From Takakia lepidozioides (Eukaryota > Plantae > Bryophyta), in contig CM060732.1 in assembly GCA_030704615.1 (NCBI GenBank), forward strand, positions 4,836,001 to 4,900,000: a stretch of DNA of 64,000 nt. Direction: 5' to 3'. The position numbers and the translations under genes are program-made. Below are positions 1,276 through 62,179 of this stretch, piece by piece; position 1 is the first letter of the stretch; each line of letters opens with the position of its first letter. A model generated the notes under the pieces. That model saw only the letters and a list, made by a program, of their open reading frames with translations, was not told where the DNA came from and made no database searches.

Positions 1276-5053
<3,778 letters not shown>

Positions 5054-12527: not shown

Positions 12528-13800
12528 CTACTGCAAATAGGGGGGGTTAGCGACGCCAACCGCGCCCCCACGCGTAGCGCAGCACTGGCTCCGTGCGACG
12601 CCAGCCCCACGGCCCCGTTTTGTGATGCCCTGGAGTCGTCATCCGCCACGGCGTGCCATCTTGCCCGTGCGTCGCCAGGTAGGTTGGACCCAGCGCCGGG
12701 GCCAGGTTGCGACGCCCGGACGTCGCAAGGTGCAATGAAGGGCAAAAAAACAGCCCACCCTTGTGACGGGTTTTTTTCTTGCGACGGATGGGGGTCGCTA
12801 GTCAACGTTGCCTTTTTGTTTGAGTTAAAGGGCCAGCGCCGTTGCCAATCTACGACGCTCGGGCTTCACAAAGTACAATGAAGGGCAAGAAGGCAGCCTA
12901 CCCTTGTGACAGGTTTTTTTCCTGGCGACGGATGGGGGTCGCTAGTCAACGTTGTATTTTTGTTTGAACTTTAAAAGGTAGGGAGAGGGGGTGGGGATGG
13001 GGGATAGGACACTGGGGGGTTTCCCACATTTTATTTTATTTTTATTTTTTTTGTGGCCCCTCTTTCTCTTTGTCCCTCTGTCCCTCTCCCTCTTGTTCAT
13101 CTGGCCCTCTCCCGCTGTTCCTCTCTCTCTCCCTTTCTCTCCCCCTCTCTCCCTTCCCGGTGGGGGCGTTAGGCCATCGAGCTTTGAAAAACCATGTTTA
13201 GGAAGAAATGAGACTCCTTCTTCAATATGCCCACATCCATTGTTTTCTTAATCAACTCTTGTAGATAGCTCGTGTTGCTCAAAACTGCTGGAAACATTCG
13301 TTGGGAATGACTTCATCCTGTTAGTTACATTGTGTGGAACATTAGTATCTGGCTTCGACAGTGTTTTCAGGCCGGATTCAATCTCCACTGTGTATTTGCG
13401 CTTTGGCAAGCTTTTGGCCCGAATCCTACGGAGCCATAAATCCACCCCAGTATGGTTCCAAGGATACTCCCTAGGTGATGGAGTTGCTTGCCTTCGTTTG
13501 CCAAACTTGTCAAACACTCGAACGGTAAAACGAGAGTGTGAAACGAGAGTGAATACAAGCTGGTCTCCGATTTTGAAGTCGTTGTCAAATGCAAACTCCC
13601 TCCAGCCTAGAACCGCGAAACAACATTCGCTCTCACGTCAGATAACTTCCATAGAACCTCGGTGAGTCTTATCGGTGAGTCTTATCGTCGGTGGGGCTGT
13701 CGGCGACGCCCAGCCGTCGCAAGGTGGCATGGAGGGGAAGATGGAGGCCCCAAGGGAGCCGGGACATGCGACGGCGGGGCGTCGCAGCGGGGGGGTTGCA
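12526..13800 (+). mobile_element. CACTA (En/Spm) left end with GCGACG subterminal repeats and a captured gene fragment
   Basis: CACTACTGCAAATAGGGGGGG at 12526. Many gcgacg/cgtcgc motifs at 12549-12950 and 13690-13790, with an internal tandem duplication (about 12732-12810 and 12876-12954). No right TIR found. Confidence 0.7.
13190..13665 (-). pseudogene. B3 DNA-binding domain (REM/VRN1-like) gene fragment
   Basis: The minus frame reads ..CFAVLGWREFAFDNDFKIGDQLVFTLVSHSRFTVRVFDKFG.., matching the C-terminal half of the B3 consensus (GWxxF..DN.L..GD.LVF..F.V..FD); stops flank it. Confidence 0.8.
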
Positions 13801-14474: not shown

Positions 14475-15215
14475 GACCATCACATCCACCCAAATGCCGA
14501 ATATCAAAAGCCAAAAAAACAAAAAAAACAAAAAAAAAACACGGAGAGTGGTGATCGGTAACTGAAGTGATGGTCGACATCGATCATCACATCCACCCAA
14601 ATGCCGAATGTCAAAAAAAAAAAAAAAAAAAAAAAAACGAAAAGTTATGATCTGCGGCACCGAAAGAAGTGATTGTCGGCACCGACCATCGCATCCACCC
14701 AAATGCCGAATGTCCAAATATATATATATATATATATATGATCGGCGGCACTGGCAGAAGTGATGGTCGGCACCGACCATTGCATCCGGCAAAATGCCGA
14801 ATGTCAAAAGCCAATTTAAATTTAAATTTCATTTAATAATAATAATAATAATAACAGAAAGTGATGATCAGCGGCACCGACAGAAGTGATGGTCGGTGCT
14901 GACCATCACATCCACCCAAATGCCGAATGTCCCAAAAAAAAAAAAAAAAAAAACGGAGAGTGATGATCGGCGGCACCGACAGATGTGATGGTCGGCACCC
15001 AAATGCCGAATGAAAGAAAAGTATTTAAAAATAAATAAATAAAAAAGGATCGGCGGCACCGACAAAAGTGATGGCCGGCACCGATCATCACATCCACCCA
15101 AATGCCAAATATCAAAAGCAAAAATAAAAATAAAAATAAATAAAAATAAATAAATAAATAACTAGAAGTAATGATCGGCACTGATCTTTCATCCACCCAA
15201 ATGCCGAATGTCAAA
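14475..15215 (+). repeat. About 8 conserved GC-rich units separated by variable poly-A/AT tracts
   Basis: Recurrent gatcggcggcaccgacagaagtgatggtcggcaccgaccatcacatccacccaaatgccgaatgtcaaaa with a period of about 90-125 bp. Confidence 0.9.
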
Positions 15216-15465
15216 TGCGAAAAAAAAAAAAAAAACAAAAAAAAAACAGTCTACGACTACCAATTCCGCGGCTACAGGCCCCTTTCTCCCTGTTCTGTCC
15301 GCGGTCATAGGTACGCCCGTGGAAATGACATGGCGAGGCGTAACGTGGCGTCAACCACGCTGGCGAAGACTGCTGACGTGGCGTCGGACCCTTGAGCCAA
15401 TGTGGCGAGAACCGGTGACGTGGCGTAAGCTTGGCCGCGCTCACAGGCTCACGCGGAGGCATCCC

Positions 15466-17266: not shown

Positions 17267-17812
17267 AGGCCCCCTTTGCATCCTCGATGCACCCGCATTT
17301 TGACGTACATGTCCACCAGGTATTGTTCAGAGTGACAATTGGTACAATTTCAGCTCTGAAGATGTCACCATGGACCTCTTTTCCCTTTCCCAGATCTGCC
17401 AGGGCAGGGTGTTGAATGACATTTGGTACAACTACAGCAAAATCTTTAAGCATCGCATTCCACGATACCATATCTCGTTCAGCCATAGTGTCAAACACTC
17501 CCTTTGCATCCTCAATGCACCCGCATTTTGCATACATGTCCTGCCAGGGTATTGTTCAGAGTGACAGTTGGTACAATTCCAGCTCTGTAGATGTCGCCAT
17601 GGGCCTCATTGCCCTTGTCCAAATCTGCCAGGGTAGTGTGTAGAATGACATTTGGTACAACTGCAGCAGAATCTTCGAGCCTCGCATTCCACGACACCGT
17701 ATCTCGTTCAGCCATAGTGTCAAACATTCCCTTTGCATCCTCGATGCACCCACATTTTGCATACAAGTCCACCAGGGTATTGTTCAGAATGAAAGTTGGT
17801 ACAATTCCAGCG
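17267..17812 (-). pseudogene. PLS-class PPR fragments, tandem unit of about 231 bp, frameshifted
   Basis: [34 protein letters not shown] and similar repeats in ORFs 17172-17537 and 17512-17973. Confidence 0.9.
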
Positions 17813-18429
17813 TTCCTGGTATTTAGGGGTCGTTTATAAGTAGGGGAGCTCCTGGGATCAAGCAAGACGACAGTGAGGGGGGGTGTCACATCAGTGGGTG
17901 AAGGATGGGGGCTTAGAAAGAGAGAGAAGGACGAAGTAAACACTGATTGGTGGGAGGGGGTAGAGGGCTTCATGTGTATAAGTGGGTGCCGTGATGATAG
18001 AAATTCGAGCAGAGGCTACTTCTGCAGCTTCATCCCGGGCACTGGGCCTGTACCATGAACGTCGGGGGTGCAGAGCTTGCAGAGGACATCCTGGTCGCGG
18101 AGCCAGCCAGTCCCGAGAAACCAGCCAGATCGCATCTTCCGGGGTGGGGAACTAGCCCCACCAGATCCTGCCCTCCTCTTAAGCAGGCCTGGCATGGGAG
18201 CCAGATACGAACGCCGCCAGTGGTAACCACATGCGGGCGTAACTTCAATGAAATCACACCCTTCATACCAGAGCTGCATGCAATTACCCAGGCTAGAACT
18301 AAACGTGTGAATCTCCATAAAATGTAGGTTGGTGTCGTTCACTGCTGATACCTTGAAGAGAGGTCCCGCCGGGCAAGCCATCTTATAATAAGCCGGGAAG
18401 GGGTCTCTGCACTCCTCGTGTGCTGACCA

Positions 18430-18560
18430 GCTAACATTTGTGTTGAACACTTGGAGCGCATCCACGATGCTTCCGCATTTTACAGACATGTTGACAATGG
18501 TGTTGTGTAGAAAAACATTCAGCTTGAATCCACTTTGGATAATGTGAGCATGCACCTGCA
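18430..18560 (-). pseudogene. PPR fragment
   Basis: QVHAHIIQSGFKLNVFLHNTIVNMSVKCGSIVDALQVF. Confidence 0.8.
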
Positions 18561-18591
18561 TTCTTGCTGCCACTCTACACACTGCTTTCTT

Positions 18592-19726
18592 GCTGTCACT
18601 CTACACACTGCCCTGGCCGATCTGGGAAAGGGCAAAGAGGCCCATGGCGACATCTTCAGAGCTGAAATTGTGCCAACTGTCACTCTGAACAATACCCTAC
18701 TGGACATGTATACAAAATGTGGGTGCATCGAGGATGGCAAGGGAGTGTTTGACACTATGGCTGAACGTGATTTAGTGTCGTGGAATGCGATGCCTGCAAG
18801 TGGTGCTGTAGTTGTTCCAAATGTCACTCTACACACTGCCCTAGCAGATCTGGGAAAGGGCAAAGTGGTCCATGGCGACATCTTCAGAGCTGGAATTGTA
18901 CCAACTGTCACTCTGAACAATACCATGGTGGACATGTATGCAAAATGTGTGTGCATCGAGGAGGCAAAGGGAGTGTATGACACTATGGCTGAACGAGATA
19001 TGGTGTCATGGAATGCGATGCTTGCAGGTTCTGTTGTAGCTGTACCTAATATCATTCTGCACACTGCCCTGGCACATCTGGAAAAGGGCAAAGAGGCCCA
19101 AGGCGACATCTCCAGAGCTGGAACCGTACCAACTATCATCCTAAACAATATCCTGGTGGACATGTATGCAAAAGGCCCAAGGCGACATCTCCAGAGCTGG
19201 AACCGTACCAACTATCATCCTAAACAATATCCTGGTGGACATGTATGCAAAATGTTTTGATGTAGCTGTACCAAATGCCATTCTGCACACTGCCCCCGCA
19301 GATCTGGATAAGGGCAACGAGGTCCATGGCGACATCTTCAGAGCTGGAATTGTACCAGCTATCACTCTGAACAATACCCTGGTGGATATGTATGCAAAAT
19401 GTAGGTGCATCGAGGATGCAAAGGAAGTGTTTGACACTATGGTTGAACGAGACTTGGTGTCGTGGAATGCGCTGCCTGCGGCGTTGCTGTAGTTGTACCA
19501 AATGGCACTGTGCACATTGCCTTGGCAGATCTAGAAAAGGGCAAAGCGGTCCATGGCGACTTCTTCAGAGCTAGAATTGTATCAACTGTCATTCTGAACA
19601 ATGCCCTGGTGGACATGTCTGCAAAATGTGAGTGCATCGAGGATGCAAAGGGAGTGTTTGACACCCTGGCTAAACGAGATGGGGTGTCGTGGAATGCGAT
19701 GCTTGCAGGTTTTGATGGAGGCTTTG
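18592..19726 (+). pseudogene. Tandem array (about 4.5 copies) of a 77-codon deleted PLS-PPR unit
   Basis: Repeated [62 protein letters not shown], with frameshifts near 19170 and 19490. Confidence 0.9.
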
Positions 19727-25997: not shown

Positions 25998-26240
25998 TGT
26001 GTCGACCATCACTTCTGTCAGTGCCGCTTTTATTTTTATTTTTATTTTTTTTGGCTTTTGATACTCGGCATTTGGGTGGATGTGATGGTCGGCACCGACA
26101 ATCACTTCTGTCGGTGCCACCGATCATCACTTTTCGATTTTATTTATTTATTTATAAATCAATTTAAGGTGACTTTTGACATTTGGTATTGGGGTGGATG
26201 CGATGGTCGGTGCCGACCATCACTTCTATCGGTGCCGCCC
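25998..26240 (-). repeat. Reverse-complement copy of the 14475-15215 repeat array (about 2.5 units)
   Basis: ggcatttgggtggatgtgatggtcggcaccgacaatcacttctgtcggtgcc units with T-rich spacers. Confidence 0.9.
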
Positions 26241-28024
26241 GATTTTGTTGTATGCCCAGGAACGCCACTTGTTTTCTAAGATTCCACATCTTTGAAGGTA
26301 TGAGAGATTCGCCTCCTCTAAGATGAAATTGAACACCCCACCTGGCTCGGATTCCGATTCGCATATGGCATACCGTGATCCTTCTCGAAACCTCGTGTTC
26401 CCCTGCATAACAGATCGATGTCCGGAACCTCCATTCTGGAAGAACCTCCGACGCGACGGCAGGCTCCAGCATCAAACAGTGCCACTGAAATGATACATGA
26501 GAGAAACTACCCCCTTGATATGCTGGAGTCCACATGCCCCGACCACGTTTGACACATAGAACGCACAAGTGCAGGGTCTCGTGTGAAATGTACAAGCGAT
26601 CAGGGCAACTTTTTGAAAAGTGCACTTCATCTATATCCAGAGGTGGTGCCCGGACTCCTACTCCGACTTTCACGGGTGTGATGTGTCTATACGGCCAACC
26701 AGAAGCCAAAAACCACAAGTTCTGGTTCTGTGTAGACAATTGTAGTAGATGTGTGCATGGAACTGTGCGTCCTTCCGTGGTAATGAAGCCAGCTTCTCCA
26801 ACCGTTTGGCCCGTCAAGGTGGGAATACATCTCACGAGTCAGGAGATTGCAATGCTGGAGGAGGCAGACTTTTCCCTTGCGAGATAACCCCAACTGCATG
26901 CATGTGCTTCTAATTCTGCATCCTCTCGGGTCCCTCCGGCAAATCCTCACTTGTGGCCAACCAAACGAGATGGAAAGCTGGTTCGGCATTTCCCTCCAAC
27001 CGCTGAACACTTCGGCAAAGTGGAGTCCGTAAGAATGCTCCCAAGCTCGTGTTTGCAAGCACCACGGAAGTGCCCGATCCAGGATATGGTCGGGTGTACA
27101 CAATGATCACTTCGACATCTGCTGTTCATGACAGAGCCTACGACATCACGGTTCCAATTTTCCCAATTGCACATGTCCTGATTTTGTGAATATGCTATCA
27201 ACCAGTTTGGGCAAGAAAGGTAAATTCATACCCAGCAAACATTTGTATTTCATATTTTTGAAGATGATGGTTTGCGATCCTAAACGTGACAACTTCGTTC
27301 ACCAGGCCACTCTGAGTTTCAACGAGGTCGATACTCTATTGCAGCGGGATACAACACATAGGTAGCATCTGCTATGCAATGTGGTATGTGGACGACTATG
27401 TTATGAAATGTGCTTTGCAAACATTGTCATGGAAATTCAATTCAAATCAATTCGTTTGCAACATCGTCGGCGGTGCAATGATATGACGTTCCTTATCCCT
27501 CCATTTGCTTCCAACTATACTGAGTGAGCTCTGAGTGACAACTTTAAAAGCACATGCATCATGCACTTTTCGAAGTCTACATGTTTTCCTGTCGCTATGC
27601 ACTGCAATCATCTTTTGAAGATGATCCTAACTCTCATTGTTATTTGGGGAGGGAGCAAGGTCTTCCCATGGCAGCCTCTATGGCGCATACTTTGTGAGGA
27701 TATTTTCTCGTCCTTGTAAATGAAACAAACATTTGTAATTGCACAATGTTGGATGCTACAATTGTAGGCCCCATGGTATTCTTCATTGTATTCAGCCAAG
27801 GATTCCCTGCATTAATCCCACGGTCATAGGACCATCCTCGGTTATAGGCGGCGCATGTTCATGCTGACGTGGCAGATAACGGCGCAGTGCCACATCAGCA
27901 TTGTCGCCATTCAGCCTGCTGAAATCATGCTCACGCCACGTCACTCCTGTGTGAACGTACATTCGCGCATTCACGCGCAAGGCTTACGCCATTGCGTCGT
28001 TGTTGTTTTGGAGCCTACCGAGAG

Positions 28025-29545
28025 CTTCTTCTAGCTCCATATCAGAGAGATCTCCTTCCAGAGAAGCTGCATTCAGGGCGTGAGCATCCTAGGGGTATCC
28101 TCTAAACAAGCCTTTTGAGCAGGGGATGGTTGAAGGCCAGTTTGATCACTGTGAAAAATGTGCCTGAAATGGTTTGACGCCATCTTCGCCATAGATTTTG
28201 GAGTATCGACCAGCATCCCCGAGGTGTGGTCTATTAGCTCCATAATGGATTGTGAGGCTCTTCTAAGTTTGGCATTGTCAAAGAAGTACTTTGACATTTT
28301 CTCACATTTAGAAGACCAATTGGGTGATTGCAGCCTACAGTGTCCATTTTTTGCTGTCACAGCACTGTTTTTTCCAAACATAGAATAATGGTAAATTATC
28401 ATACTCCTACATGACAATGCCATCAATAAAAATGGACTAATATATAGAGGCTCATCTACATATACTTTCACACTTTTAAATCTCATTATCAAAAACCAGA
28501 ATCTCTAGATGCTATGGACTTTTAAAAAGTCCATAAGGAATTGTCAGAGTCCATAAAAAAAGACATTATGGACTTTTTTAATACAGGAGTTAGAACAAAG
28601 TCAAGAAAATGGACTCTCTCAACCTTGCTTTGGAGAATGAGGAATCTGGAATGAAAACTGTCATTCAAAAATATGAAGTTAAAAAAAAGTTATGTACTAT
28701 ATTGAGCCTAAAAAATGGCTATTTCCATAAAGTCCTTTATGACTAAATTCTTTAGAAATAACATTTTTTTTTCATTAGACGCATTCATTCACCATAAATG
28801 CAGAGTTGATTATGATCAAATTTCAAAAAAAAAATTGTGAATTGATGTTATCTCAATTTGAAAATCTTGGTTTTTACAGTCAATAATAGACGGTCAAGAT
28901 TGTCAGTTGAAGCAAATCCGATGTTTGAGGATTCGCCACATCCTCCTTTATGTATTTTATGTACTCATGATCTGCCGTTTTTGGTCTACTCTAGTTTGCA
29001 ATCACCCAATTTATCCCAGCCTGAAGCTTCCATTTTCGTTCCTGAGTTTTGAAATGGATATCTAAGTTGTTTCTTGCCTCCATGTAAGTGCTGAAGGTGA
29101 ATTCATCGCAACGGTTGGATTCAACTCTGGCTTGGCAGACTTTGAGACATTTTGTCAAGGCTGCAATTTTTTTTTTACGGATCAACGCTGAGGCCTGGCT
29201 CATCTTTTGGCTTTCGATGTTAACTGCTTTCAGTTTTGCCATAAATCTGTCCGTGGGATTTTGATCGATTGTTCCTGCTGTGGACCAGGCCTGGACCAGA
29301 CCAAGTTTGAAGGATGGAACCATGAGCAGGAGGTTATTTATTTTGAATAGCCCTCTGCCTCTGAGTTTTGACTCCTGAATGGAAATAAGGACTGCTATGG
29401 GTGCATGGTCAAATCCCAGCAGGATAGGATTTTGGGGAAGCCTTTTTGAACATTGTACTATACCGAGAGAGACATAGGCTCCGTCCAAGCGAGCCATACT
29501 AAGGTCAGCTAGGGATCGGTTAGTCCACACGTACCATCTCACAGG
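28025..29545 (-). mobile_element. L1-clade LINE ORF2 remnant (end of the APE domain plus linker), split by an AT-rich insertion at about 28335-28990
   Basis: YVWTNRS..ARLDGAYV..FDHAPI..LFKINNLLL (28991-29542) and SKYFF..IMELID..NHFRHIF (about 28070-28300). Confidence 0.75.
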
Positions 29546-30460
29546 TCCCAGAGTAACATGAGATCAATCAAAATTTGTTCAATGGGCCAATGAGGCGTTC
29601 ACCTGTGAGAAATTTTTTGTTCATTGCAAAAAAGAAATCCTGCAATGCGTGCACGGCTATTGCACCCATTGAACGGATGTGATTGAAGCCCAACTTCTGC
29701 CCGCATGTGCTTGGACATGTGCGGAGACACAGCATAAGAACAAATCATTTGCCTCCCAATCGATGCGGTCACCCTCAACCCATTCGAGAATTTAATTAAA
29801 TTTAAATGAATTTGAAGCCAATAATTAGGTTTACACCAGAGGCGGCTTCGCTCTACCACCACCGGAAGACATACTCCCCCTCAACATACCAAGGCGAGCT
29901 ACACGCATACTACGAGACTCGACCACCCGAACGTTCCCACCATCGGCCTACTCCGCTCGACAGACACAACAATCAGGAGGTGGTCTCGACCACTTCGGCT
30001 CGTCCTCAACCCAAGCAGCTCACAAGGCCCTGCTCTTCCAATGGACACCCCGCCACACACAGCAAATACGCATGCCCAGCTTCTCCGCCCTCTAGGTGGC
30101 CCAGTTGTATGCCCGTTGTTCTCTCCACACGCCGCTTTATTGACTGCAAAGCAGAGCATGGCTACTCTGCCTTCAGGCGCGGCCTGGTTTCCTCTTCGTC
30201 GTTGCTTTCACAACAATATGGGGCTCTTTGCACCGGACAGCATGTCCATATTCTCACAGACTGCACGAAGGTCTTTATGCTTCACTACCACCTCGAGTGC
30301 GAAGTGCTTCTTGTCATTACGATCTGCACAACCCCCGCCCCCGATCCAGGACTAGCGCTGCCCCCCGGTGTAAGCATGCAGTCAACGCTTCAGGGTTCCA
30401 ATCCGTGTCCAAGTACCTAAGCGCGCGATCAATATTTGCGAGTCTGGTGTTACCTACTTT

Positions 30461-32044
30461 TTGGCTCACGACACCATCTTGGAGAGCTTGGGGGCTTCAC
30501 CCCCACCTCTGGCGCCCGCCAGACTATCAACAGGCGAGTCTGACATCAGAGGCTGCCTGCAAAAGGCGATGGAGCTGGACCGCCCCAACTCCTCTCAACC
30601 CATGCATCCAACTCCAACTCGCTACATGCTCGAATACCACGATCTCATCCCAACAGATGGTCTTCACTCTTCATTTCGTTTGGGCCCATTACAGACGCAC
30701 CAATGCTACACTTCTACTCTTCCTCTTTGCTTGATCAAGTATCCACAAGGGCAATCAGAGCTCCCTGATAATCTGAAGGCTCTGTTCAGGCCATGCGCTA
30801 TGATGGCCCATGATTATGGCATTCTCAATGTGTGTGGCAGCCTAGGAATCCCAGAAAAGGGCAACGGGGCTCATGCCTGCATCCTGAAAGCTGGAATTGC
30901 TCGAGATGTCATCCATGAGAGGAACGAACAGCATGAGGACATGACCTCAACCGTTTCTGCAGCAAGAGACCCCCTTTTCTTTGCACATCACGCCAATTTG
31001 GACCGTTTGTGGGACCTCTGGAAGACCCTGCCAGGAGGTCAACGTGGCAACCTTACTGACCCGGACTGGCTCAATTTGGAGCTTGTGTTCTATGATGAAA
31101 ACGCTGATCTTGTTCGTGTAATGGTAGCAGACTCTCTGGATATTGAAACATTTCGCTACAAGTACGAAGAGGTAGAGATTAACTGGCTATGGCTCAATTC
31201 TACCCGTCTGAGCACCAAGCCAGCTCCAGTTTCAGTGTCTCCAGATCGTGCTCCAGAGTTCTTGGAGCAACTCATGAGGGGCATAGCCAAGCTTGCAAGG
31301 TTCATCGTACCTTCATGGCAGATAGAGCGAACAAGCAAGAGTTGTGATTTGATGGAGACCGCCATCGCTGACATGTATGTGAAGTATGGAAGAATGAAGG
31401 CTGCACATCAGGGGTTTGTTAAGATGGCTCACACAAATGTGATCTCATGGTGTGCTATGATCGCAGGATATGCTCAGCATGGGCAAGCTGGTCCAGGGCA
31501 AACAACAATTATGAAAGAAGGTTTTGCTGCAGGGATAGAGTACACCATCAGCCAGCGTAATGTAGGGGCTGGCCCTTGGAGAAAGGAGTCTGAGCAGGCA
31601 TATATCACCAGAAAGTGCCAAGCTGATGCTATGGACATCAATATGAGGGATGTTTGTGCTATCAAAATCTGCTCCCACCCCCCTGGGGCCCCCTCTCCCC
31701 AGCAGGGCAGAAGTGTGCAAGGTACTCTCTTCAGCATCTGGCCACTCAACCATTCATGCCCACTCCACCCTCCCCCCCTTCACATGTCCCCCCACAACCA
31801 GAAGGCTCCAACCTATGTCCCCAAGCAGGCCCACAACATCAAATCTGGATCTGAATCAGCCGTTCGAGTGGGAAATGCTTTGGTTGACATGTATGCCAAG
31901 TGCGGGAAACTCGGGGATGCACGCAAAATGTTTGATAAAATGATTGAACAAGATGTGGTACTGTCATGGACTGCTATGATTCATTGGCTACACCATGATG
32001 TCTTCTCTACACCAAAACTTGGGAGAAGGCTCCTGGTCGAATGA
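30461..32044 (+). other. Intronless chimeric ORF: dynein heavy chain, PPR, polyphenol oxidase and PPR fragments
   Basis: GQSELPDNLKALFRPCAMM (dynein, about 30749-30820); AARDPLFFAHHANLDRLWDLWK..DPDWL..FYDENA (PPO CuB/DWL, about 30930-31195); PPR motifs at about 30821-30915, 31345-31490 and 31830-31985. Confidence 0.8.
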
Positions 32045-32109
32045 ACCTGGGCAGATTTACATGATAGCATGCCATACTGGTGTAAAGAACAGCGACATGA
32101 GTGGTGATC

Positions 32110-33266
32110 GGTATATCCTCAAAGCTGAAATTGTTCCAGGAATCTTCAACCTGGAGACTGCCCTTTCCGACATGAATGCCAAATGCGGGAGCGTAAGCCA
32201 ATTGTTTGTCGAAATGATTAAACGAGCATCACCCAGGGCCCAGAGTAAGATCTCCATCTGTTGCAGCCGCTTAACTGAGCCCAACCCCGAGCTCGAATAT
32301 ATGCTACCAGGTTTTCAGAATTCTGTTCCTAATCTGACCTGCATGCCAGAAGTGCAAATGCAAGGACAGGCCATGCTCCTACTTCCAAATGCGGTACTCT
32401 CTTCCATGGACAGCCCGCCGGTCTCCCCAACAGTGACACCCTCTCCAAGTGTAGACTGTGCAGCATCAGTTGCACACACTAATGTCTCAGGTGCCAGGTA
32501 TACCAACAGCAGGAGCATGAAGGATGCATGCCAAAGGTCTGGCGATAGGAACGAACGAGTAATGACCTCATGGAGTACAGTGATAGCTGGAGATGCCGAA
32601 CATGGAGGCGTTTCTGTGGCTCTCAAGAAACCATGTCTTTGGAGAACCCTGATTGCACACTTTACTTTTACTGGAACTGCTCTCAGCAGGTTGCTGGCGA
32701 AGCTACTTGTTCAAGGGAATGCTAACTGTAGTCTTCAGATCACCCACCATTCTCACATTTTGCGGCAGGAAGAAAAAGTTGCCCATGAGGAAGAATCGAC
32801 ACATAATAAGATCCATGGACAGTCTGCAGGCCAGGCGAGAGGACATTGTAGAGAAGTTAATGCCTACGAAGGAAAGTGCTACTGTTTTGGCTGATTCACA
32901 TGCACCCAGTGTAGACCATGACAACTCCGAAACATCAGACCTAGCTGTATCAACAGCTTTGGCAGGAAAAGAGATTTTTCTTAACGGAATGACGGAGGTG
33001 GTGGTTGATGGTTCTCCAAGCGATTTTGGGGAAATCTGCAATCCTGGATATGCCCAGCATGGTTGTGGTAGGGAGGCTTTTGAGATGTCTGTACAAATGC
33101 AATGGGAAGGGGTGCAGCCCGGCAGTGTAACATTCATTTGTGTTCTCAGTACGTGTGCCACTCTTGCAACCCTGGGAAAGGACAAAGGTGTCCATGCTGA
33201 CATCATCAAAGCTGGAATCTCACCTGATATCATTCTGAAGACTGCCCTTGCTGATATATATGCCAT
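32110..33266 (+). pseudogene. Further PPR fragments interleaved with unidentified sequence
   Basis: ETALSDMNAKCGSV, TSWSTVIAGDAEHG and GYAQHGCGREAFEM..EGVQPGSVTFICVLSTCA..VHADIIKAG. Confidence 0.75.
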
Positions 33267-35370
33267 GGTTCACCAATTCCACCCTGAGGCTCAACTTTTT
33301 GTCAATGATTCTCCTTATGGCCTTCTAAGCAGCGATCTGGCATCCAGTCTCTGTCAAGGTAACTACCCCAACGTCTATCTCTTCCAAGTATTTGAAGTGC
33401 TCATATTGCCCCCATGTATATCACAGACCCTCTCTCCAAGACAGTGGCCCCCTGTTCCCACCATTGCATGTGCTAACCAGCAGGATTGTTTTTGTAAATC
33501 ACACCCCCAAGGACTGGTCCCTCGACTCTTTCCGACTCGGATCACCTCTCCCTTGTTACAATGATCTTTTACATTAACACCTTTTTTTTCCATAGCTGTA
33601 CCTGCTGGTACACCAGAATTCCAAATTATCTACTCTGCATGTGTTCCTCCTCTCAAATAATTGATAAGGCCTCTATCCATGATGCCACTCCTTCTATTTA
33701 CCTGCTGCTTCCTGATCATCACTCTAATCTTCATCCGTTTCTTCCAGGTTCAATCTCGAGGAAGGACTATGCTGCATTTTCGATTCTCTCTCCCCAAGCT
33801 ACTTGGGCATATGTACTCTCTCCATGTCAAACAATTCCGCACCAATGCTACTCTATATGCATGATTTTACTCCAAAAATTTTACTCCATGTTACCACTCA
33901 ATGACATCAAAAAACATCGCACTATCATCAGAATGCTCGCCATCCCCAAGGCGTATCTCATCCATCTACGATTCGTCATTATGTTCCTAACGTCTTTCAT
34001 CCACCTCCCATTCGTCCTGGTCTTCCAGACGTTTATCACCCATCCGCTATTCATCACACTGCACAGCCCACATATCAGGACATATGCAAAAACATCTATG
34101 CTTATGGGCCCTGTACATCTCTCCCCCAAACTCCCATGCAATGAATCGATTTTGCATTCCACTCACTACGTTTCACGTACCCACTACTCATCCCTATCCT
34201 CTAATATAATCCACCTGCACATCAAACCTCACAAACTACGGCTCAAACAATACCAGTACCTTCCCAGATTGTGGTTGTGGCACTCCATTTTACGTCATTT
34301 CACATCCACACCTATCCATTAACACATATATACCAATTTAACAACATAAGTTATGATAAATTTCCTCCATTACTTGGACTTCCCATGTACACTTAGCTAC
34401 TTGCTCCACTATTACCGATGACACCCCATACACTCTTATAATAGCTACCTCCCATGCACCCCTACTCCTCGGTCCCTCCAAATCCACCTCATAACCCACT
34501 GCCGGCATGGAAGATACCACCAAAAACCTCTGGTATCCAAACACTCATCTCACCATCCACCGTCCCACTTTAAATCCTATAAACTTGCCTGTGAAACACT
34601 TATCCTCCTTCGTTGCGGCGACATTCACCCAAACCCAGGCCCCTCTACCATCACCAGCATCATCCACAAACTTCCCAAGGACCATCAAGAAAGATATGAA
34701 TTATATTTCCAAAAAGACACCGTCTCGTACCTGCATATCAACACCTAAGCGACCACTTCTCCCCCTTTCTTCCCAACCCATCCACCAATATCCACAAACC
34801 CACACACCCAATCGCCACCTTTGGGCTTCCAGCCTGTCAAAAACCCTTCCCTAGTCAATGTCACCAGGAACTTAACACATACCCTATACAACACCTCATT
34901 TTCTCACTAATCATCGTCATCTCCCCAATACCCTCAATATGTGACGACTATTTTAGAAGCCAACCAGACTTAGACATATGCTCACTACTACAACAATTAC
35001 ATAACTTACCTCCGTTACCTCACAAATATCTAGCACCCCTACACTATCTGCATAACCTCCACGAATCTCTCAACCTGATGCAAGCCAAGCCCGGAGAAGT
35101 CCATATAAAATTAGGTGAACACCTGGCACACCCAACTGAAGCCACACAAGAGTTCAACACCATTGCCAACAAATTCCCATTTCTCTCCGAACAAATTCTC
35201 ACTGCCACCCTCCAAGCCAAGGAAGGCATACCTAGATATCAACCCCCACCCATGACAACACCACCTACCCCCTCACCTTGCCCACATAACCCACCAGAAC
35301 ATTACCTCCAGAACCTACTAGATCCTCCAGCCCCTCACACACCCCTCCCTCACAGAGTGCACACTCACTC

Positions 35371-35755
35371 AACATAATAACTTGGAATGTAGGATCACTT
35401 GCCACAAGCATTCAAAGCCTAATCTATCTCACAGACCACATACCCCCGCATATTCTCCTACTACAAGAAACTAAACTTAACACACACAACCCCAATAGGT
35501 CCTATATTAACAAACTCCTCACAGCCTACTATATGCAGTATGGCAACTCGTTCACAGCTGCACAATACCTCACCAGACGTTCAGTGCCATACTATCCAGC
35601 CCGCGGAGGGGTGGCTTTCGGTATCCTACGCACACATCACTCCCCCAGTACCACGGTTAAAATATCTGTCGCCCTCCCCCTCCGTTCACACCTTCAAATC
35701 ATCAAAATACACCTCCCCGCCCCCCCCCCCCCATTATCCTTATGCATTTATACAT
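35371..35755 (+). mobile_element. LINE APE endonuclease N-terminal fragment within a C/A-rich degenerate non-LTR region (about 33270-35755)
   Basis: From 35371 the frame reads NIITWNVGSL..PHILLLQETKL, with RGGVAF further on. Confidence 0.8.
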
Positions 35756-35879
35756 GACAGAGACGACTTCATCCAAGCGCCCTCGGATGGAAATTCGGCG
35801 CTCCAAGACGACTTCATCCCAGCCCACTCGGATGGAAATTCGGCGCGTTTTTCCATCCGGGGGATGATCTCTGGCAGCT

Positions 35880-41700: not shown

Positions 41701-43440
41701 GTTTTCATCACGGAGGTGCCACCAGTTGCTGAAGAGAGTGCCGGTACGAGCACCAACGATACTAGTGGGTATACAAGACGAGGTGTGCGGTTTAGGCCAC
41801 CTTCACCTTCAGTGTCTTCTGAGGAAGGTTCAGACTCAGAGTTAGGAGGATTCTCGTCGAGGGTGCAAGCCATTTCCATGCCATTCTTGTGGGATACGAT
41901 GGAGGAAATATATGGAGCTACCAAGGGGCCACGTCGGTACTCTGGAGAGATGGGCACCATCGAGCTTGATGATTTCATACAGGAGTTTGATAGTTGGTGT
42001 GATTTGCAGCAGATGCGCAATCCACAACTATTTACGTCTTTTATGGTGTGGAAGGGGCTGTTTCAGCACCTTGAGGGGCCGCCCATGGATGACTACCATG
42101 AGTTTAGGCGGGGACATGAGGTGGAGATTGAGGAATGGCGGGTGTATTGGTCACCTGACTATGTCTCCATCACTAGAGACACAAGGGCAGTGGTGACACC
42201 GACAGCTACACCGACAGCCTCTACAAGCAGCAGTGGGATGTCAAGTGGAACAGGAGCTCGAAAGTCCACCCAAGCCCCTGCTACAGCACCAACACCCGTG
42301 CCTGCCTTTAAGCCAGTTGTGGAGTTCTTCGAGGAGTTAAGGAGAAACTACCAGGAAATAAGGACGGAGAAATTGCGGAGCTTGCAAGAGTTCCAACGAA
42401 AGCCTACCGAGAGTTTAATGGAGGCTTACACGCGCATGAGGCGATTGATAAATGTAACCCAAGGGGTTACGGAATCTCAAGAAGTCCAATTCTGATATGG
42501 GATATTGGACAAAGAGCTGATGAGAAGGGTGCGGGATGCAACTCTCCTACAAGTGGCCCAACCCACCTTAGCAAACGTGTTTTTGCTGGCAGAGCGGATA
42601 GAGCTCAATATGGTGGAGGAGCGAGTGGTCATGGTGGGTTTTGGTAAGGAGACACAACGAAGTGGGGTTCCTAGCCAACAACAACCACTACCCCAACGTG
42701 CTCAAGGCAACAAAGAGGCTTAGGCGAAGCCCAGGGAAGGACAGAGAGGATCTCAATTGCAGAGGTCACTTCCTTCATTCTCAGGCCAACAACAGTCGGG
42801 AGTGACATGTTGGGATTGTGGAAGACCCCACGTTAAGAGAGATTGCCCGAAGAGAGGCAAAGGGCCGGCACAGGCACAGCCTACACAACCACAATGTAGG
42901 CATTGTGGCAAGTATGGGCATGAAGAGACCCATTGTTATGACTTGCATCCTGAGCTACGGCCAGGCCAGTTCCAAGGGAACAATGGTGGCCGAGGACGAG
43001 GCAATGTATTCCAGAGAGGTAGAGGAGGCAGAGGTCGTGGTGGACGTCGTAACCAAAACCAAGGAGCACAGGGTCAAGGTCAAGGTCATGACCAAGGCAT
43101 GGTGGATAGGCTTGCCCAGCTAGAGCAATGTCTTCTACCATGGCCACTACTCATGTTGCGTCAGCTCCAAGGCCTGAGGTTCAAGCCCCACCTGCACAAC
43201 CTCCTATGCCTAGGGAAGACCAGATTGGTATGGGCTTCATGTGTGGAGCCGCACTTGCAGGACCATTGCATGTGGACTTTGCAGCTGCTATCACTCGAGC
43301 AGCAATGCGTGCTCCTGAGCCAAGAGGAGCGGATATGGATTTTGATCCACAAAGAGGGAAACAAGTCGGAAGACAAGACTTCCATAGTCTTTCACATTGG
43401 CTGAGACAGTGCCAACTATGCCATCGATGACACCCGCTCA
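41701..43440 (+). pseudogene. gag: Ty3/Gypsy gag (capsid, two zinc knuckles, RGG tract), disrupted
   Basis: PRRYSG..LDDFIQEFDSWC and FQRKPTESLMEAYTRM; knuckles CWDCGRPHVKRDC and CRHCGKYGHEETHC; stops at 42493 and 42721. Confidence 0.85.
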
Positions 43441-43779
43441 CCAAATGTGTCAGAGGTAGAGCCACGAGTGCCATTGAGGAGAGTTGGTATGGCTCGGGAA
43501 ATGCCAATGGGTGGTAGTGCAAAGCAAGGTGCAGCCAGTATATTGTTGGGGGCGGCTACGGCAATTTGCCAAGCTCCATTGTTTTCTGCCACGACAATTG
43601 CAATGCCGGGGATGCGGCCAGCTGCAGTGTTTAGATTGGCAGCTGCACTCTGTGAGAGTGGTGATGCATCGGCACTATCTACGGGGATAACGGATCAAGT
43701 GCAGTGCATGGATGCCCTGGATTCAAGGGTGAAGACAGTCACAGCTGCGCCATGGCAAGCGGCAGCTGCAAGGTTGCAG

Positions 43780-44230
43780 CAGTTGTCAACTAGACCAGCC
43801 ATTGAGCGTAGTATGGTGACTCCTGGGGTAGTCCTGGTGGACAATCAGGATGGGATGTTTCAGTTGGGTGGCCCAGCCGGGAGGAGGTATATGCCACTGC
43901 GGGTCTTGTTGGATTCGGGAGCACAGCCATTGATGTTGGGGAGAGCAGCAATTGCACGCTTGGGCCTTACAGAGGCGGATTTGGAGCCTTGTCCTTTCCA
44001 AATTCAAACATCTTTGGGCGGTTCAGAGAAGGCACGAGGGATTACACACCATGAGCTCTTCATTCGATTGCAGCCATATCATCCTACAGATGGCTCTGTC
44101 ATGAGAGCTAAAGCCATTGTTACGGACGCGATGTTTTATGATGTGTTTGTTGGTGGGGCTGTGTTATACCCAATGGGCTTTACTTTGGACTTTTGGGAGG
44201 AAACGACATCCTACAGGCCGGAATGACAGT
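43780..44230 (+). pseudogene. Retrotransposon aspartic protease
   Basis: VLLDSGAQPLMLG active site at about 43903, with YDVFVGG downstream. Confidence 0.85.
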
Positions 44231-44599
44231 CAGGGGATGGTCGACGTGCACTGCTCCTAGTGCGGTTTATTGGGAATGTACCGGTGGATCATATAAACAT
44301 GATGCCCACATTGGCTGCATTCTCAGGGGTGGTGGCTTGGGGTGGTGAGCTCTTGGAGGGCAATAGCCATGCAGATGATAGGCCACCACCTGATGAGGAC
44401 AAACAATTGGCATACAAGGCTGATTTGCTTTCTCATGTGCATGTTCATATTCCACTGTGGGGTACAGTTAGGAATTTGCATCGAGTAGCAGGCGAGTGTG
44501 TGCACCAAATATGGTAGGAGGCCTATCCATTGGTGAGTGAGGGGAGTTCAGTGACATCACCTGGACCTCCTCAGTTAGCTCCTTTGGACACAGTGCCCA

Positions 44600-45500
44600 T
44601 TATCTGGCAACCACCTGACTCAGGGATTTGTTTGCTAGACATGTTTGGAGGTATGAGCACTGGGCTTGCAGGAGTGTTGCAAGCAAGGATTAAAGTACAC
44701 AAGTACTTGTATTTGGAGAAGGATGAGATAGCTCGGCATATTTCTATGCGCCACATCGCCTTGCTCACACACCGGTATCCTGAGTTGTTGCCTCTCTCAG
44801 TAATTTAAGGGTATCAAAAGGCCTTGCCAACAGACATTACCTTGCTGGGGGCGAATGATTTGGACCGGCATGGTGCCATTGACTTGGTAATAGCTGGATG
44901 ACCTTGCCAAGGACACTCTCCTGCAGGTCATGGGAATGGCTTGCATGATGCATGATCGCATTTGTTTTGGGAGATGTTGAGAGTGTTGCATGACTTGCAG
45001 ACGTGACAAGTGCAACCTCTAGCATATATCTTGGAGAATGTTCCTCTTATGGGGGACTCTCGGGCCAGGGTTATGGCCAGTGTGCATCAGGTGCGGTCTT
45101 GGATTGGATCGGCGGTGCTATTGGATGCAGCAGCGGTGGGATCACGAGCGCATCGACCTCGATTGTGGTGGACCAATCTTGCACCACCAGAGCTGCTCAA
45201 GAGAGCATCGATTCCATTCAATGGCCACCCAATCGCACAGTTGAGGGCATTTTCGAGTGGGGCAGCCACATGTAGCCTTGCCTACGCTCATGGGCTTTCC
45301 CCTGTCTCATGTTTTTTGAGACAATGGTCCTAGGTTGATTTGGGACAGTGTGCTATAGCAATTGGTAGAGCCCAATGCGGATGAGCGAGAGCGGGCAATG
45401 GGATTTGTCATGGGCACTACAGCTGTGTCAGCTGTGTTAGAGGCATCACGCCGACAAATGTTGGGTCAAGCAATGGATCTAAATTGCTTGACATGGGTCA
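44600..45500 (+). pseudogene. C5 cytosine DNA methyltransferase domain inside pol
   Basis: Motif I LLDMFGGM; II YLEKD; IV DLVIAG*PCQGHS (Cys at 44905-44907); VI YILENV; VIII AHRPRLWWTN; IX ERERAMGF; X RQMLGQAMD. Motifs I-VIII share the protease frame. Confidence 0.92.
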
Positions 45501-45999
45501 TTGCATTGGCTTGTGCATGGCTGAACAACAGAGGTTGCAGACAGTGGTGGTTACTTCTGCACTCCCATTGGGTATTGCATCCTCTCTGCCTACCGGGACG
45601 GTTGAGGTAGTGAGTGGGGGCGAGTACATGATCATGGGGTGCAAACATCCATGGCAGATGTAGGATGAGATGCGGAAAGATAGAGTCCTTGGATCTCTCA
45701 AGTAGCAATATGAGGAGTGGGGAGAGCCATACACTGAGGATCAGTTGGAGGCCAAGGTGGCCAATGTTTTTGAAGAGGTTGAGAATGTTTCTTCCCTAGA
45801 GGATGTTCTCAAGGTAGCTATGGCGGAGCAAGTGGAGGCTACGCCACGGTCAGGGTGGGCAGATAGGGCCCAAGAGGTTGTTATCTAGCAACCAAATGAT
45901 GCGTCTCCTACCTCCAAGCCTGGTGTACCCAAGGTTGCAGTCACTGAGGACAACTGGGAACCAGATGTTGGACCTACAGTCACCGGAGGAGAGAGTCGA

Positions 46000-46495
46000 A
46001 AGATCCAGCGATTTCTAAGGGCTTATAGAAATTGCTTTGCCTTTGGTTTGAAGGATTTGGGGAGTTTGAAGGGCCAGGAGATTCATAATGATTTGGCAAG
46101 TGACACGCCAATTTTTTGAAGGCCCTACCGGTATAGTGACATGGAGAGGTCATTGATCCAGTCACGGACTATGGAGCTGTTCGAAGCTGGATTGGTGGAG
46201 TTGTCAGGCGGGGAGTATGCCTCGGCAACGGTGATGTTAGCTAAGAAAGATATCTATGGCAATTAGATAGAAAGAAGGATGTATGGGAACTATCGTCTTG
46301 TGAATTGTCAGACTAAGTCCGATAGATATGTCATGCCAACTCCAGAGAAGATCTTTGATGCCATTGGGCATGCAAAGGTGTTTAACACATTGGACTTGCG
46401 ATCCGGTTGCCAATCAAAGAGGCTGACAAGTAAAAGACGGCATTCTGGGGGATTGACCAACATGGGAAGGATTGCTTGTACTAATGGCGGTTCCT
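46000..46495 (+). pseudogene. Ty3/Gypsy reverse transcriptase N-terminal part; YxDD region and RNase H deleted
   Basis: PIF*RPYRYS..EAGLVELS..YASATV..KKD..RRMYGNYRLVN..DRYVMPTPEKIFDAIGHAKVFNTLDLRSG..KTAFW, then a jump to pre-integrase sequence. Confidence 0.88.
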
Positions 46496-46559
46496 ACAAC
46501 GAGCCAAGAGGTTCAAGTGGGAGGGGACTCACCTACTCCGAGTATGGGAGGATGGACGA

Positions 46560-47665
46560 GTGAGGATTGTGCCTCATCCAACACAACGAGCGCGATTGGT
46601 ACGCCATGCTCATGAGGAGTTGGGACATTTTGGGGTGTGACGCACTCATAGTTTGTTGCAAGGACAGTACTGGTGGTGGGGCATGCACACGGATGTGCAA
46701 TAGTTAGTGGCAAGGTGTGGTGTGTGATAGAGTGCGGGCTTCTTTCAATGCACCTACTCCACAATTGCATCATTTACCCATTATGGGTTTGGGATATCGT
46801 TGGAGTCTTGACTTCGCAGGCCCATTGCCACTAACGATTCGCCATAACAAGTATGTGCTGGTGATGGTGAAACATTTCTCCAAGTGGATAGAACTGGTGG
46901 CATTGCCTGAGAAGGCAAGTGATGGGGCTGCGTATGCATTCTTAGATCGAGTGCTTCGCCAATTTGGTGCTCCAGCCGAGGTACTCACGGACCAGGGGAG
47001 AGAATTCTTGGGGGAGTTTCAGGCTTTGTGTGAGCAAGCCTTGATAGACCACCACACTACTTCTCGGGATCATCCCGAGACTGATGGCCTGACAGAGAGG
47101 GTTGTACAAACAGTCAAGCGAGGCTTGCGCAAGTATGGCTTGCAGAAGGGACACTTGGGAGATTGGGACCTTCAACTACTTGGTTGGTCATGGGCAACAG
47201 GTTTAGCAAGCAAGCATTATTTGCCTCGTTCTCGCCTTATTTCCTTCTCTTTGGCCGAGAGCCAGATTTGTCTGCATCTATTTACAGAGAGACTGCAGTA
47301 GTCCTCAATCTTGATGATCCGGACATATGTGGACACAAGCATGTGCCCAGCGGGCAGAATTGTTCAAGAGAGTCATGCCTATGGCTTTTGATAACCTTGC
47401 TATTGCCCAACACCGAGACACATTGAGGTACGTCACTATACATGGAGGGGGATATCGGCCAGGTATTCAGCGTTTCCACCCTGGGGACTATGTGTATCTG
47501 CAGCAGACAACGCCTACGACTTTGGATGTCACAGCAGGACGTGTGATTCTAAAGGTCCGGGAGGTATTGCCTTCAGGAGTGTTGATTTTGGAGGGTCGAG
47601 ATGGCATGGTGTGGAAGGACCATGTGTGCAATTGTGCACCATGTCACCTTCCACATGTGGATGGA
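46560..47665 (+). pseudogene. Integrase (HHCC, DDE core, C-terminal module)
   Basis: HEELGHFG..YWW.GM..C..CD; WSLDFAGPLP; VLTDQGREF; HPETDGLTERVVQTVK; FSPYFLLFGREP; FHPGDYVYL. Confidence 0.92.
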
Positions 47666-47706
47666 TGATAGATCCCAACCTTGCAGTGGTACCTGCAGGA
47701 TTGCGT

Positions 47707-47839
47707 TGCATGCTATGTGGGCATGCTCGTGGTGCCGCAACCATGCTGGTGTGTGACAAATGCTCAAGGGGGTGGCACATGGGATGCTTAACACCGCCAC
47801 TTGGAGGTTCCTAGTGGAGAATGGTTGTGTCCACGATGC
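47707..47839 (+). pseudogene. PHD finger C-terminal to integrase
   Basis: CMLCGHARGAATMLVCDKCSRGWHMGCLTPPL, a 1-nt frameshift, then EVPSGEWLCPRC: a C4HC3 pattern with the conserved W. Confidence 0.9.
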
Positions 47840-61100: not shown

Positions 61101-62179
61101 ATGATATTTTTTACTACAAGCAACAGGTGGATGGCTGTGGCAGTGATGAAGAACGCAGATCCTTTCTTCTTGATGTGGGCATTAAGGCTCTTAGGTCTGC
61201 CTTCTCTGCACCCTTCATTATTTTTTACTACAAGCAACATGTGGATGGCTGTGGCAGGGATGAAGAACGCAGATCCTTTCTTCTTGATATGGGCATTAAG
61301 GCTCTTAGGTCTGCCTACTCTGCACTCTTCATTTTAGTTCTCACTTACTTTCGAAGAAGGATGTGCATATGGCTTCCAGGTTAAGGCCCTGTCTTTAGTC
61401 AACATCGCCATCATCATTTGGTTAAAAAGAGTTTGCTATTCAGGCATGATGCTGTGCTGTTACTTCAATGGTGGTTGGCTTTCTAGTTTGCTTCATAACA
61501 AAATCTGCCTTAGACGCCTGTACACAAAGATCCAAGGCGCTTACTAGGGTTGGTTGCTCTTTCAATTCACTAGCCTATTTCAAATAGGTTATGTTCAGAG
61601 CCCCTTGTGCTATACATCCAACCAGTGTTTGGGTTTGTGTTTCACATGCTGCAGTAATAGTTATCTTTTTCCGAAATGCAATCAAAGGAGGATTTAGACC
61701 ACGGCCTGTGCGGCCAAGAGTCGATAGCTGCACAGGCCCCTTGAAAAACCATAGAAGGTCTCGAGAGATGACAAGGTCAAACAAAGATAAAATAGTTTTT
61801 AGCGCTTGGCTTGCAGGAGTAGCTTGCAGATGTGTTTGTAATTAGATGCATTACGTCTAGTCACTTATGTCGAGCTTATTTTCTATGGGCAGTTGACAAT
61901 AGCAGTTGTTGCTGTGTTGAAGTGCACAAACTTGCTTTGATTTCGTTACTCAGGTCAGTCCTGGAAGAGAAATTTGAAAGCATGAAATTGTACAAAATTG
62001 ACTCTCATCTGGGAGTTGGGATTGGCAGGAGGTACTTCTATCTCATAGCCTTCAGGTCATATCTCTATAGTCGCGTGGCACTGCATGGCAGCACATTTGC
62101 AGGGGAGGCAGCATTTGCAGCTTGGATGCAGGCCCGACCAGAGCTTGGTCACCTTTGTGATAACCTCAAGCTTCAATGA
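52179..62179 (+). pseudogene. PALD1: Paladin-like protein (three PTP-like repeats), about 19 exons, three in-frame stops
   Basis: RGGSVLGKKTILKSDHFPGC..GAPNYRQ, WHNLREEP and FNCQMGRGRTT (twice); C-terminal YFYLIAFRSYLY..ARPELGHLCDNL. Exons include 52179-52328, 52929-53057, 53271-53342, 57523-57846, 57961-58557 and 62029-62179. Stops: TGA at 58243, TAA at 59433, TAA at 59765. Confidence 0.9.

What the first reader, a model, noticed from the sequence alone, without database searches (positions are those of the whole stretch)
30461..32044. 527-codon open frame stitched from dynein, polyphenol oxidase and PPR pieces
Seen: at least five recognisable fragments from three unrelated gene families, all sense, in frame, intronless and stop-free, in a region where almost everything else is decayed. 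Inference: either cDNA template-switch or filler capture of several mRNAs, or transposon exon shuffling. Keeping one frame across so many joints suggests recent formation or selection, making it a candidate new chimeric gene.
Basis: partly seen in the sequence, partly recalled or inferred. Interest (0 to 1): 0.7.

Follow-up and report, generated by a model that had tools for sequence, protein, structure and literature searches.

The report
Transcribed patchwork of copied gene pieces
A plant genome holds a transcribed patchwork of short, same-direction copies of dynein, polyphenol oxidase and PPR genes that stay in one reading frame more often than chance predicts, but it is likely a decaying by-product of gene-fragment capture rather than a working new gene.

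Summary
The frame is open from 30374 to 32044 (556 codons; first ATG 30569, 491 aa). It carries, in order and in frame, a 26-codon axonemal dynein piece, a PPR piece, a ~145-codon polyphenol oxidase (PPO) piece and two more PPR pieces. It is no assembly artefact: contigs from DNA and from a second study carry the joints. It is half of a ~3.5 kb patchwork (six PPR pieces, all sense) that is transcribed and spliced (GT-AG intron 33359-33747). A second copy, about 4-5% diverged, shares the dynein-PPR and PPR-PPO joints but has single-base gaps. Amino acids show no purifying selection (6 of 21 listed differences silent; 28% expected if neutral). The PPO piece lacks the first copper site. Eight upstream ATGs and an intron 1.3 kb behind the stop argue against a protein. 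No transposon ends, LTR, poly(A) tail or target duplication were found. Best reading: a PPR backbone repeatedly invaded by sense pieces of other mRNAs, probably by reverse-transcriptase template switching, now drifting. The frame-keeping (about 1% by block shuffling) is the unexplained part. A variant of known capture chimeras (Bs1, Helitrons, Pack-MULEs).

The parts
29577..29800 (.). Very high-copy repeat with internal inverted arms, ending about 100 bp before the first RNA contig; possible promoter donor (inferred, untested)
   Evidence: Summed DNA depth thousands of times the single-copy level and zero in X5; inverted arms 29577-29602/29649-29674; no Rfam match; no partner end in the window
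29898..33840 (+). Span covered by contigs of run X5 (RNA, judged by its spliced contig); one transcript is inferred, not shown
   Evidence: Contigs with 0-1 differences at 29898-30647, 30755-30848, 30940-31045, 31453-31834, 31946-33075 (depth 13-15) and the spliced contig (depth 30); no X5 cover from 27903 to 29708 or beyond 33922
29843..30158 (+). Block shared with another genomic locus; upstream open frames and ATGs, donor unknown
   Evidence: Variant contig 29843-30100 with 9 differences and 3 gap letters in X3, and a second letter at 30121 in X1 and X3; 8 ATGs between 29898 and 30568
30374..32044 (+). The open frame: 556 codons stop to stop; first ATG 30569 gives 491 aa
30618..30745 (+). 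Unassigned block shared with the second patchwork copy; the shared stretch starts sharply at about 30618
   Evidence: Variant contig with 8 differences and 1 gap letter in X5, same letters in X1 and X3 at full single-copy depth beside the window's own letters
30746..30820 (+). Axonemal dynein heavy chain piece (AAA_6 region, about 26 codons)
   Evidence: Pfam E 2e-6; PDB E 7.7e-7; 4 of 4 hits carry PF12774
30819..30913 (+). PPR piece 1 (L motif to start of S motif), worn
   Evidence: Profile positions 75-105, 8 bits; PPR-family contigs begin to match at 30819
30914..31348 (+). Polyphenol oxidase piece: end of the CuB region, DWL domain and probably the linker; 435 nt, between two PPR pieces that continue each other
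   Evidence: Pfam; 86 of 86 hits carry PF00264, best 71% identity; pairwise matches reach aa ~294 weakly; insert is a multiple of three
31349..31489 (+). PPR piece 2 (S motif and first half of P); starts at the profile position where piece 1 ends
   Evidence: Profile positions 4-50, 46 bits
31490..31828 (+). Unassigned stop-free spacer, single-copy
   Evidence: No credible match; unbroken single-copy contig 31453-31891
31829..31985 (+). PPR piece 3 (end of L, S, start of P) with a one-codon in-frame insertion
   Evidence: Pfam PPR E 3e-8; one-residue gap against 9kfx; 52 bits
31980..32894 (+). Second overlapping open frame (304 codons) with worn PPR pieces 4 (32151-32219) and 5 (32499-32627)
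   Evidence: 10-11 bits each, weak
32653..33358 (+). Third overlapping frame with PPR piece 6 (33046 to about 33265); runs 426 codons when spliced; 32896-33119 is shared with another locus
   Evidence: variant contig with 6 differences
33266..33310 (+). Short piece of a further donor gene, sense and in frame with PPR piece 6; looks like a GH10 xylanase (label recalled, not confirmed)
   Evidence: 30 letters shared with a 2,246-nt contig of X6 whose flanks differ; no Pfam or xylanase PDB hit
33359..33747 (+). GT-AG intron, 389 nt, 1.3 kb behind the stop of the main frame
   Evidence: Joint 33356>33746 (cut +2) in X5, none in DNA run X3; ends read
34600..35757 (+). Right flank: LINE-like endonuclease region; the C-rich stretch from about 33500 is probably its 5' part (inferred)
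   Evidence: Exo_endo_phos E 1e-4; GC skew
28073..29563 (-). Left flank: LINE-like remnant (label by eye, no significant profile hit), interrupted by a ~690 bp inverted-repeat element

Best explanation
This is a transcribed, spliced patchwork of same-strand gene pieces with at least one related copy elsewhere in the genome, likely built when a reverse transcriptase copying a PPR mRNA switched onto other mRNAs and back, and it is probably decaying without making a useful protein. Shown: the pieces, their strand and frames, the joints in reads, the spliced RNA contig, the related copy, and the neutral-looking changes. Inferred: (1) the six PPR pieces come from one PLS-PPR backbone, because PPR and non-PPR blocks alternate and piece 2 resumes where piece 1 stops; (2) capture took place at the RNA level, because all pieces are sense and no intron is spliced inside the patchwork; (3) patchworks served as templates for each other, because blocks with joints inside are shared among loci; (4) the 3 kb from 30374 to 33358 was once one frame and has since taken two frameshifts; (5) some filter on translatability, past or present, kept the frame while residues drifted.
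For: Pieces and frames. Colinear PPR pieces 1 and 2 around a 435-nt insert. No antisense piece: 0 credible hits in three antisense frames against the PDB (best E 0.11), none among the minus-strand segments in Pfam, none with the PPR profile. RNA: X5 has the GT-AG joint that DNA run X3 lacks, and lacks the high-copy flanking repeats; this is the only GT-AG joint among the 5 listed at 97%. Related copy: variant contigs over 30618-30748, 30746-30897 and 30868-30969. At 30658-30718 both versions stand at full single-copy depth in X1 (31 and 37), so they are paralogues, not alleles. Drift: 6 of 21 listed differences silent against 28% expected; 5 of 6 changes that set the window apart from most PPO family contigs alter a residue. 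Against protein output: 8 upstream ATGs, intron 1,314 nt behind the stop, single-base gaps in the related copy. Mechanism in print: repeated template switching gives chimeric retrocopies of several transcripts (PMC5470649, passages).
Against: No LTR, poly(A) tail or convincing target-site duplication flanks it, so no retroelement is tied to it. No lost intron can be shown without donor loci, and no genome is held. Helitrons also favour sense capture (78.6% in maize, 10.1101/777037, passage). If the PPR pieces share one backbone, the strand evidence shrinks to 3 of 3 inserts (p = 0.125), one of them with an unconfirmed label. A purely neutral history leaves the frame unexplained: P about 0.01 for the joints times 0.16 to under 0.001 for surviving later drift. 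The variant tables were cut (40 of 209 rows), so the silent/non-silent count is a small, mixed sample; weak purifying selection is not excluded.
Confidence: 0.45

Rival explanations
1. A non-autonomous Helitron or Pack-type DNA transposon that captured gene pieces step by step at the DNA level; its ends have been lost or masked by the flanking LINE insertions.
For: Blocks shared among related loci with sharp edges resemble stepwise Helitron capture (PMC3288121, passages). Sense bias is known for Helitrons (10.1101/777037, passage). A very high-copy repeat sits just upstream of the RNA, as TIRs drive Pack-MULE expression (PMC5861414, passages).
Against: No hairpin-plus-CTRR end above chance (4 sites, none ending CTAG; 0-6 in 10 shuffles), no inverted partner for the upstream repeat, no convincing target duplication. 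No intron is spliced inside the patchwork in the listed RNA joints, although DNA capture should bring some. Does not explain the frames.
Confidence: 0.25
2. A young, working chimeric gene: the 491-aa frame is translated and kept open by selection on a new function, with residues free to change because the donors' functions no longer matter.
For: Frame open over 556 codons with four known-to-known relations in frame; P about 0.01 by block shuffle; an in-frame one-codon insertion in PPR piece 3; transcribed. Precedent: maize Bs1 (PMC13317346, main text read).
Against: Silent share equals neutral. PPO piece has no CuA site and no first CuB histidine (site layout from own knowledge). Every piece is a part of a fold. 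8 upstream ATGs and a downstream intron are nonsense-decay features (own knowledge). The related copy has single-base gaps and the downstream half has two frame switches. No protein with this make-up among the 120 listed hits or the 86.
Confidence: 0.12
3. A dead PPR gene that collected filler DNA at repeated double-strand breaks, copied from other loci during end-joining repair.
For: PPR pieces 1 and 2 continue each other exactly around the PPO insert. Complex filler from several sites is known (PMC2686159, passages). The window has other broken PPR remnants.
Against: Filler described there is 1-131 bp and comes from sites near the break. Here one insert is 435 nt and no donor lies in the window. 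Filler has no reason to be sense or in frame, and it does not explain shared multi-joint blocks without extra duplications.
Confidence: 0.1
4. An assembly artefact that joins unrelated repeats.
For: X1-X4 may be the source sample; no listed contig spans the whole stretch; two joints have under 31 letters on one side.
Against: X5, from another study and differing at 30121 and 31683, carries the same joints; a diverged second copy holds two of them; single-copy contigs run through three joints.
Confidence: 0.02

Closest known systems
Maize Bs1 chimeric gene in an LTR retrotransposon (PMC13317346, main text read; the primary papers were not held)
   Same: Pieces of three unrelated host genes joined in one transcribed open frame
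   Different: Bs1 lies in an LTR element and is translated; here no LTR was found, translation is untested, pieces are more numerous and shorter, and PPR pieces alternate with the others
Chimeric retrocopies from repeated template switching (PMC5470649, passages)
   Same: Partial, same-strand copies of several transcripts in one locus
   Different: Those are flanked by LTR sequence; none seen here, and intron loss could not be tested
Gene-fragment-bearing Helitrons (PMC3288121 and 10.1101/777037, passages)
   Same: Up to nine pieces per element, stepwise capture with blocks shared among elements, sense bias, some transcribed
   Different: No Helitron 3' end found; frames kept across most joints; no spliced donor intron inside
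Pack-MULEs and Pack-TYPE elements (PMC5861414, passages; PMC13317346)
   Same: GC-rich captured pieces, transcribed from beside a high-copy repeat
   Different: No TIR pair or target duplication; maize Pack-MULEs show no strand bias (10.1101/777037)

Membership tests
LTR-type chimeric retrocopy (Bs1-like) | Pieces of several host genes in one frame | tested here: met
LTR-type chimeric retrocopy (Bs1-like) | Flanking LTRs | tested here: not met
   No long direct repeat flanks 29.5-34 kb
LTR-type chimeric retrocopy (Bs1-like) | Donor introns lost | not testable with these tools
   No genome held; donor loci not available
LTR-type chimeric retrocopy (Bs1-like) | Transcribed | tested here: met
   Spliced contig in X5
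LTR-type chimeric retrocopy (Bs1-like) | Translated | not testable with these tools
   No ribosome or peptide data; exact protein not on record
LINE-made processed copy | Poly(A) tail and target-site duplication | tested here: not met
   No A run of 8 or more in 29-36 kb; no shared flanking word of 10 or more letters, only chance-level 8-9-mers
Helitron with captured fragments | 3' hairpin followed by CTRR in an AT site | tested here: not met
   4 weak sites in 27.7-37 kb against 0-6 in shuffles; ends may have been lost to LINE insertions
Helitron with captured fragments | Sense-biased, stepwise capture with blocks shared among copies | tested here: met
Pack-MULE / Pack-CACTA | Terminal inverted repeats with target duplication | tested here: not met
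   No inverted match over 14 letters between the left flank and the rest of the window
Functional polyphenol oxidase | CuA and CuB sites with six histidines | tested here: not met
   Only the end of the tyrosinase domain is present (profile 182-213 of 214; alignment)
PLS-class PPR editing factor | Unbroken array of P-L-S motifs | tested here: not met
   Six separated pieces in three frames
Functional new chimeric gene | Purifying selection on the protein | tested here: inconclusive
   6 of 21 silent, neutral expectation 28%; small, cut sample

The most novel reading that the evidence does not exclude
This plant runs a standing factory of chimeric open frames: its very large PPR family supplies backbones into which sense pieces of other mRNAs are copied, the patchworks re-template each other, and they are filtered for staying translatable (RNA survival or translation-coupled copying) rather than for what the protein does. 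That would give a genome-wide family of element-less patchworks with open frames but neutral residues.
Probability: 0.15. Interest if true: 0.75.

Novelty: new variant of a known kind. Interest (0 to 1): 0.45.

Why it matters
Captured-fragment chimeras are well known in grasses and a few other flowering plants, mostly inside recognisable transposons. Here the patchwork has no visible carrier, alternates PPR with foreign pieces, and keeps its frame while residues drift, in a plant with axonemal dynein (so a flagellated-sperm lineage; inferred). If the pattern holds across the family, it would separate selection for an open frame from selection for protein function, a step that is hard to observe in gene birth. 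If it is one lucky copy among many broken ones, it is an ordinary capture scar. Searches for such a case in seed-free plants found nothing to the point (titles and abstract starts only); the library lacks most subscription papers.

Tried and rejected
No genome is held, so donors, copy number and empty sites could not be read. No run is on record as RNA; X5 is taken as RNA only from its spliced contig and its lack of flanking repeats. X5 does not hold the window's own letters at 30648-30754 or about 31280-31450: contigs drop variants, so this is no evidence either way, but RNA continuity over the whole frame is not shown. X6 has one contig of this copy (32032-32336, depth 3.2), too little to weigh. 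Donors of the unassigned blocks: 1 of 108 six-frame segments hit Pfam below E 0.01, a PPR; 2 of 93 short windows hit at E 0.017 and 0.044, rejected; the third sense frame read through gave 0 PDB hits. The 2 hits of the full HMMER search with the spacer are sums of weak repeats in an abalone obscurin-like and a collagen-like protein, rejected. The N-terminal search found only dyneins at E 0.2-3.5. Atlas gave PPR clusters under 0.8 and nothing for the second frame. The xylanase label was not confirmed. A single-sequence fold was uninformative (pLDDT 34). No Rfam match in the window. No earlier finding for this genome or sequence. Bits per residue of the PPR pieces against the training motifs were not used, since the training set inflates the comparison. 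Summed contig depth was used only as a rough sign of repeat families, not as copy number. Four papers asked for by id were not held; no supplements were read.

Full report
Observation. The stated stretch translates to 527 residues and a stop. The frame is open from 30374 (556 codons); the first ATG is at 30569, giving 491 aa. The other five frames have 16-33 stops, and base shuffles never exceed 226 codons (500 trials). Pfam finds a dynein AAA_6 piece (aa 96-121), the end of a tyrosinase domain with the PPO DWL domain (aa 156-243) and a PPR. The PDB confirms dynein (E 7.7e-7) and 86 of 86 region hits are PPOs.

It is larger than the finding. Two further overlapping frames (31980-32894, 32653-33564) carry the downstream PPR pieces, so 30374-33358 has an open path with two frame switches. 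A short piece at 33266-33310 shares 30 letters with a 2,246-nt contig of run X6 whose flanks differ; it looks like a GH10 xylanase, a recalled label that two searches did not confirm. Counting it, 9 of 9 recognised pieces are sense and 6 of 8 successive pairs are in frame (p = 0.004 and 0.02, post hoc). Antisense frames gave no credible hit. PPR and non-PPR blocks alternate. PPR piece 1 ends at profile position 105 and piece 2 starts at the equivalent position 4, with exactly 435 nt of PPO between them. This suggests one PPR backbone with inserts; in that case only 3 inserts test the strand bias. About 240 codons of the main frame remain unassigned.

It is real and transcribed. Nine runs were listed, six holding the stretch, from three studies; four were laid. 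DNA contigs of X1 and X3 bridge three joints with 35 or more letters a side; X5 bridges two of them. X1 and X3 may be the source sample, but X5 is another study and differs at two places. X5 holds a contig that skips 33359-33747 at GT..AG, which DNA run X3 lacks, and X5 has no cover on the high-copy repeats on either side. I therefore take it as RNA from the + strand. Its contigs cover most of 29898-33840 at similar depth; a single transcript is inferred, since two parts of the frame lack the window's own letters in X5.

It has relatives. Variant contigs cover 30618-30748 (8 differences, 1 gap letter), 30746-30897 (7, 1) and 30868-30969 (3, 0), so a second copy shares the dynein|PPR and PPR|PPO joints. 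Both versions stand at full single-copy depth in X1, which rules out alleles, and the sharing starts sharply near 30618. Blocks at 29843-30158 and 32896-33119 are shared too. Over the five listed pieces the difference is 33 of 867 bases. Whether these are one or several loci cannot be told.

Selection. Of 21 listed differences inside the frame, 6 are silent; the neutral expectation is 28%. I left out one X5-only change (31683, non-silent); the tables were cut (40 of 209 rows) and mix paralogue and family differences. Five of six changes that set the window apart from most PPO contigs alter a residue. The PPO piece lacks CuA and the first CuB histidine. The RNA span has 8 ATGs before 30569 and an intron 1,314 nt behind the stop, features of nonsense-decay targets (own knowledge). 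Yet the frame is more open than drift predicts. With 19 blocks given random frames on the sense strand, 556 codons are reached in 1.0% of 3,000 trials (0.03% with random strand). Later drift at 1.5-5% leaves such a frame intact in 16% to under 0.1% of runs, by assumed indel rate. The number of patchworks from which this one was picked is unknown, so luck is not excluded if there are hundreds.

Carrier. No LTR, TIR pair, Helitron end, poly(A) tail or target duplication was found. A very high-copy repeat lies just upstream (29577-29800), a LINE-like remnant to the left and a LINE endonuclease region to the right; the last exon seen reads into the C-rich stretch before it.

Mechanism. I favour RNA-level template switching from a PPR mRNA onto other mRNAs and back (0.45): all pieces are sense, none brings a spliced intron, and the copy returns to the backbone. 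Repeated switching is described as giving chimeric retrocopies (PMC5470649, passages). Helitron or Pack capture is the main rival (0.25): stepwise block sharing (PMC3288121, passages) and 78.6% sense capture (10.1101/777037, passage) fit, but ends are missing. A working chimeric gene like maize Bs1 (PMC13317346, main text) gets 0.12, filler DNA (PMC2686159, passages) 0.10, artefact 0.02.

Novelty. Capture chimeras are a known kind. This one fails the membership tests for each carrier and shows an open frame with neutral residues. Searches found no such case in seed-free plants (listings only). Two unchecked notes of this scan describe co-oriented patchworks without carriers in fungi; they are leads only. 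Verdict: new variant of a known kind, interest 0.45.

Noticed in passing
window 41701-47814 (+): Broken LTR retrotransposon with gag, protease, a C5 cytosine methyltransferase (PF00145, E 1e-11, about 44830-45080), integrase and a PHD finger. Methyltransferase-bearing retrotransposons are described from dinoflagellates and a charophyte alga (PMC5890265, passages); those passages name no land-plant case. Worth its own look.
   Followed up: partly
window 18594-19714 (+) and 17272-17811 (-): Tandem array of a 228-bp unit made from a PPR L-S-P stretch, about five copies, with an inverted block of 2.4 copies next to it.
   Followed up: partly
window 18016-18600 (-): 194-codon open frame with a PPR piece followed by unassigned sequence; may be another patchwork.
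   Followed up: no
window 56392-62179 (+): Multi-exon gene with repeated PTPlike_phytase domains, paladin-like (name recalled).
   Followed up: partly
window 28318-29011: About 690-bp AT-rich element with 24-nt inverted ends inside the minus-strand LINE-like remnant.
   Followed up: no
window 14475-15245 and 25999-26239: Inverted pair of subterminal-type repeat arrays about 11 kb apart, enclosing the PPR array region; the second is followed by a high-copy repeat.
   Followed up: no
window 34590-34645 (+): A 2A-like peptide motif (label recalled) ahead of the LINE endonuclease region.
   Followed up: no
window 13248-13637 (-) and 1453-1788 (-): A B3 domain piece and a flavin oxidoreductase exon.
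   Followed up: no
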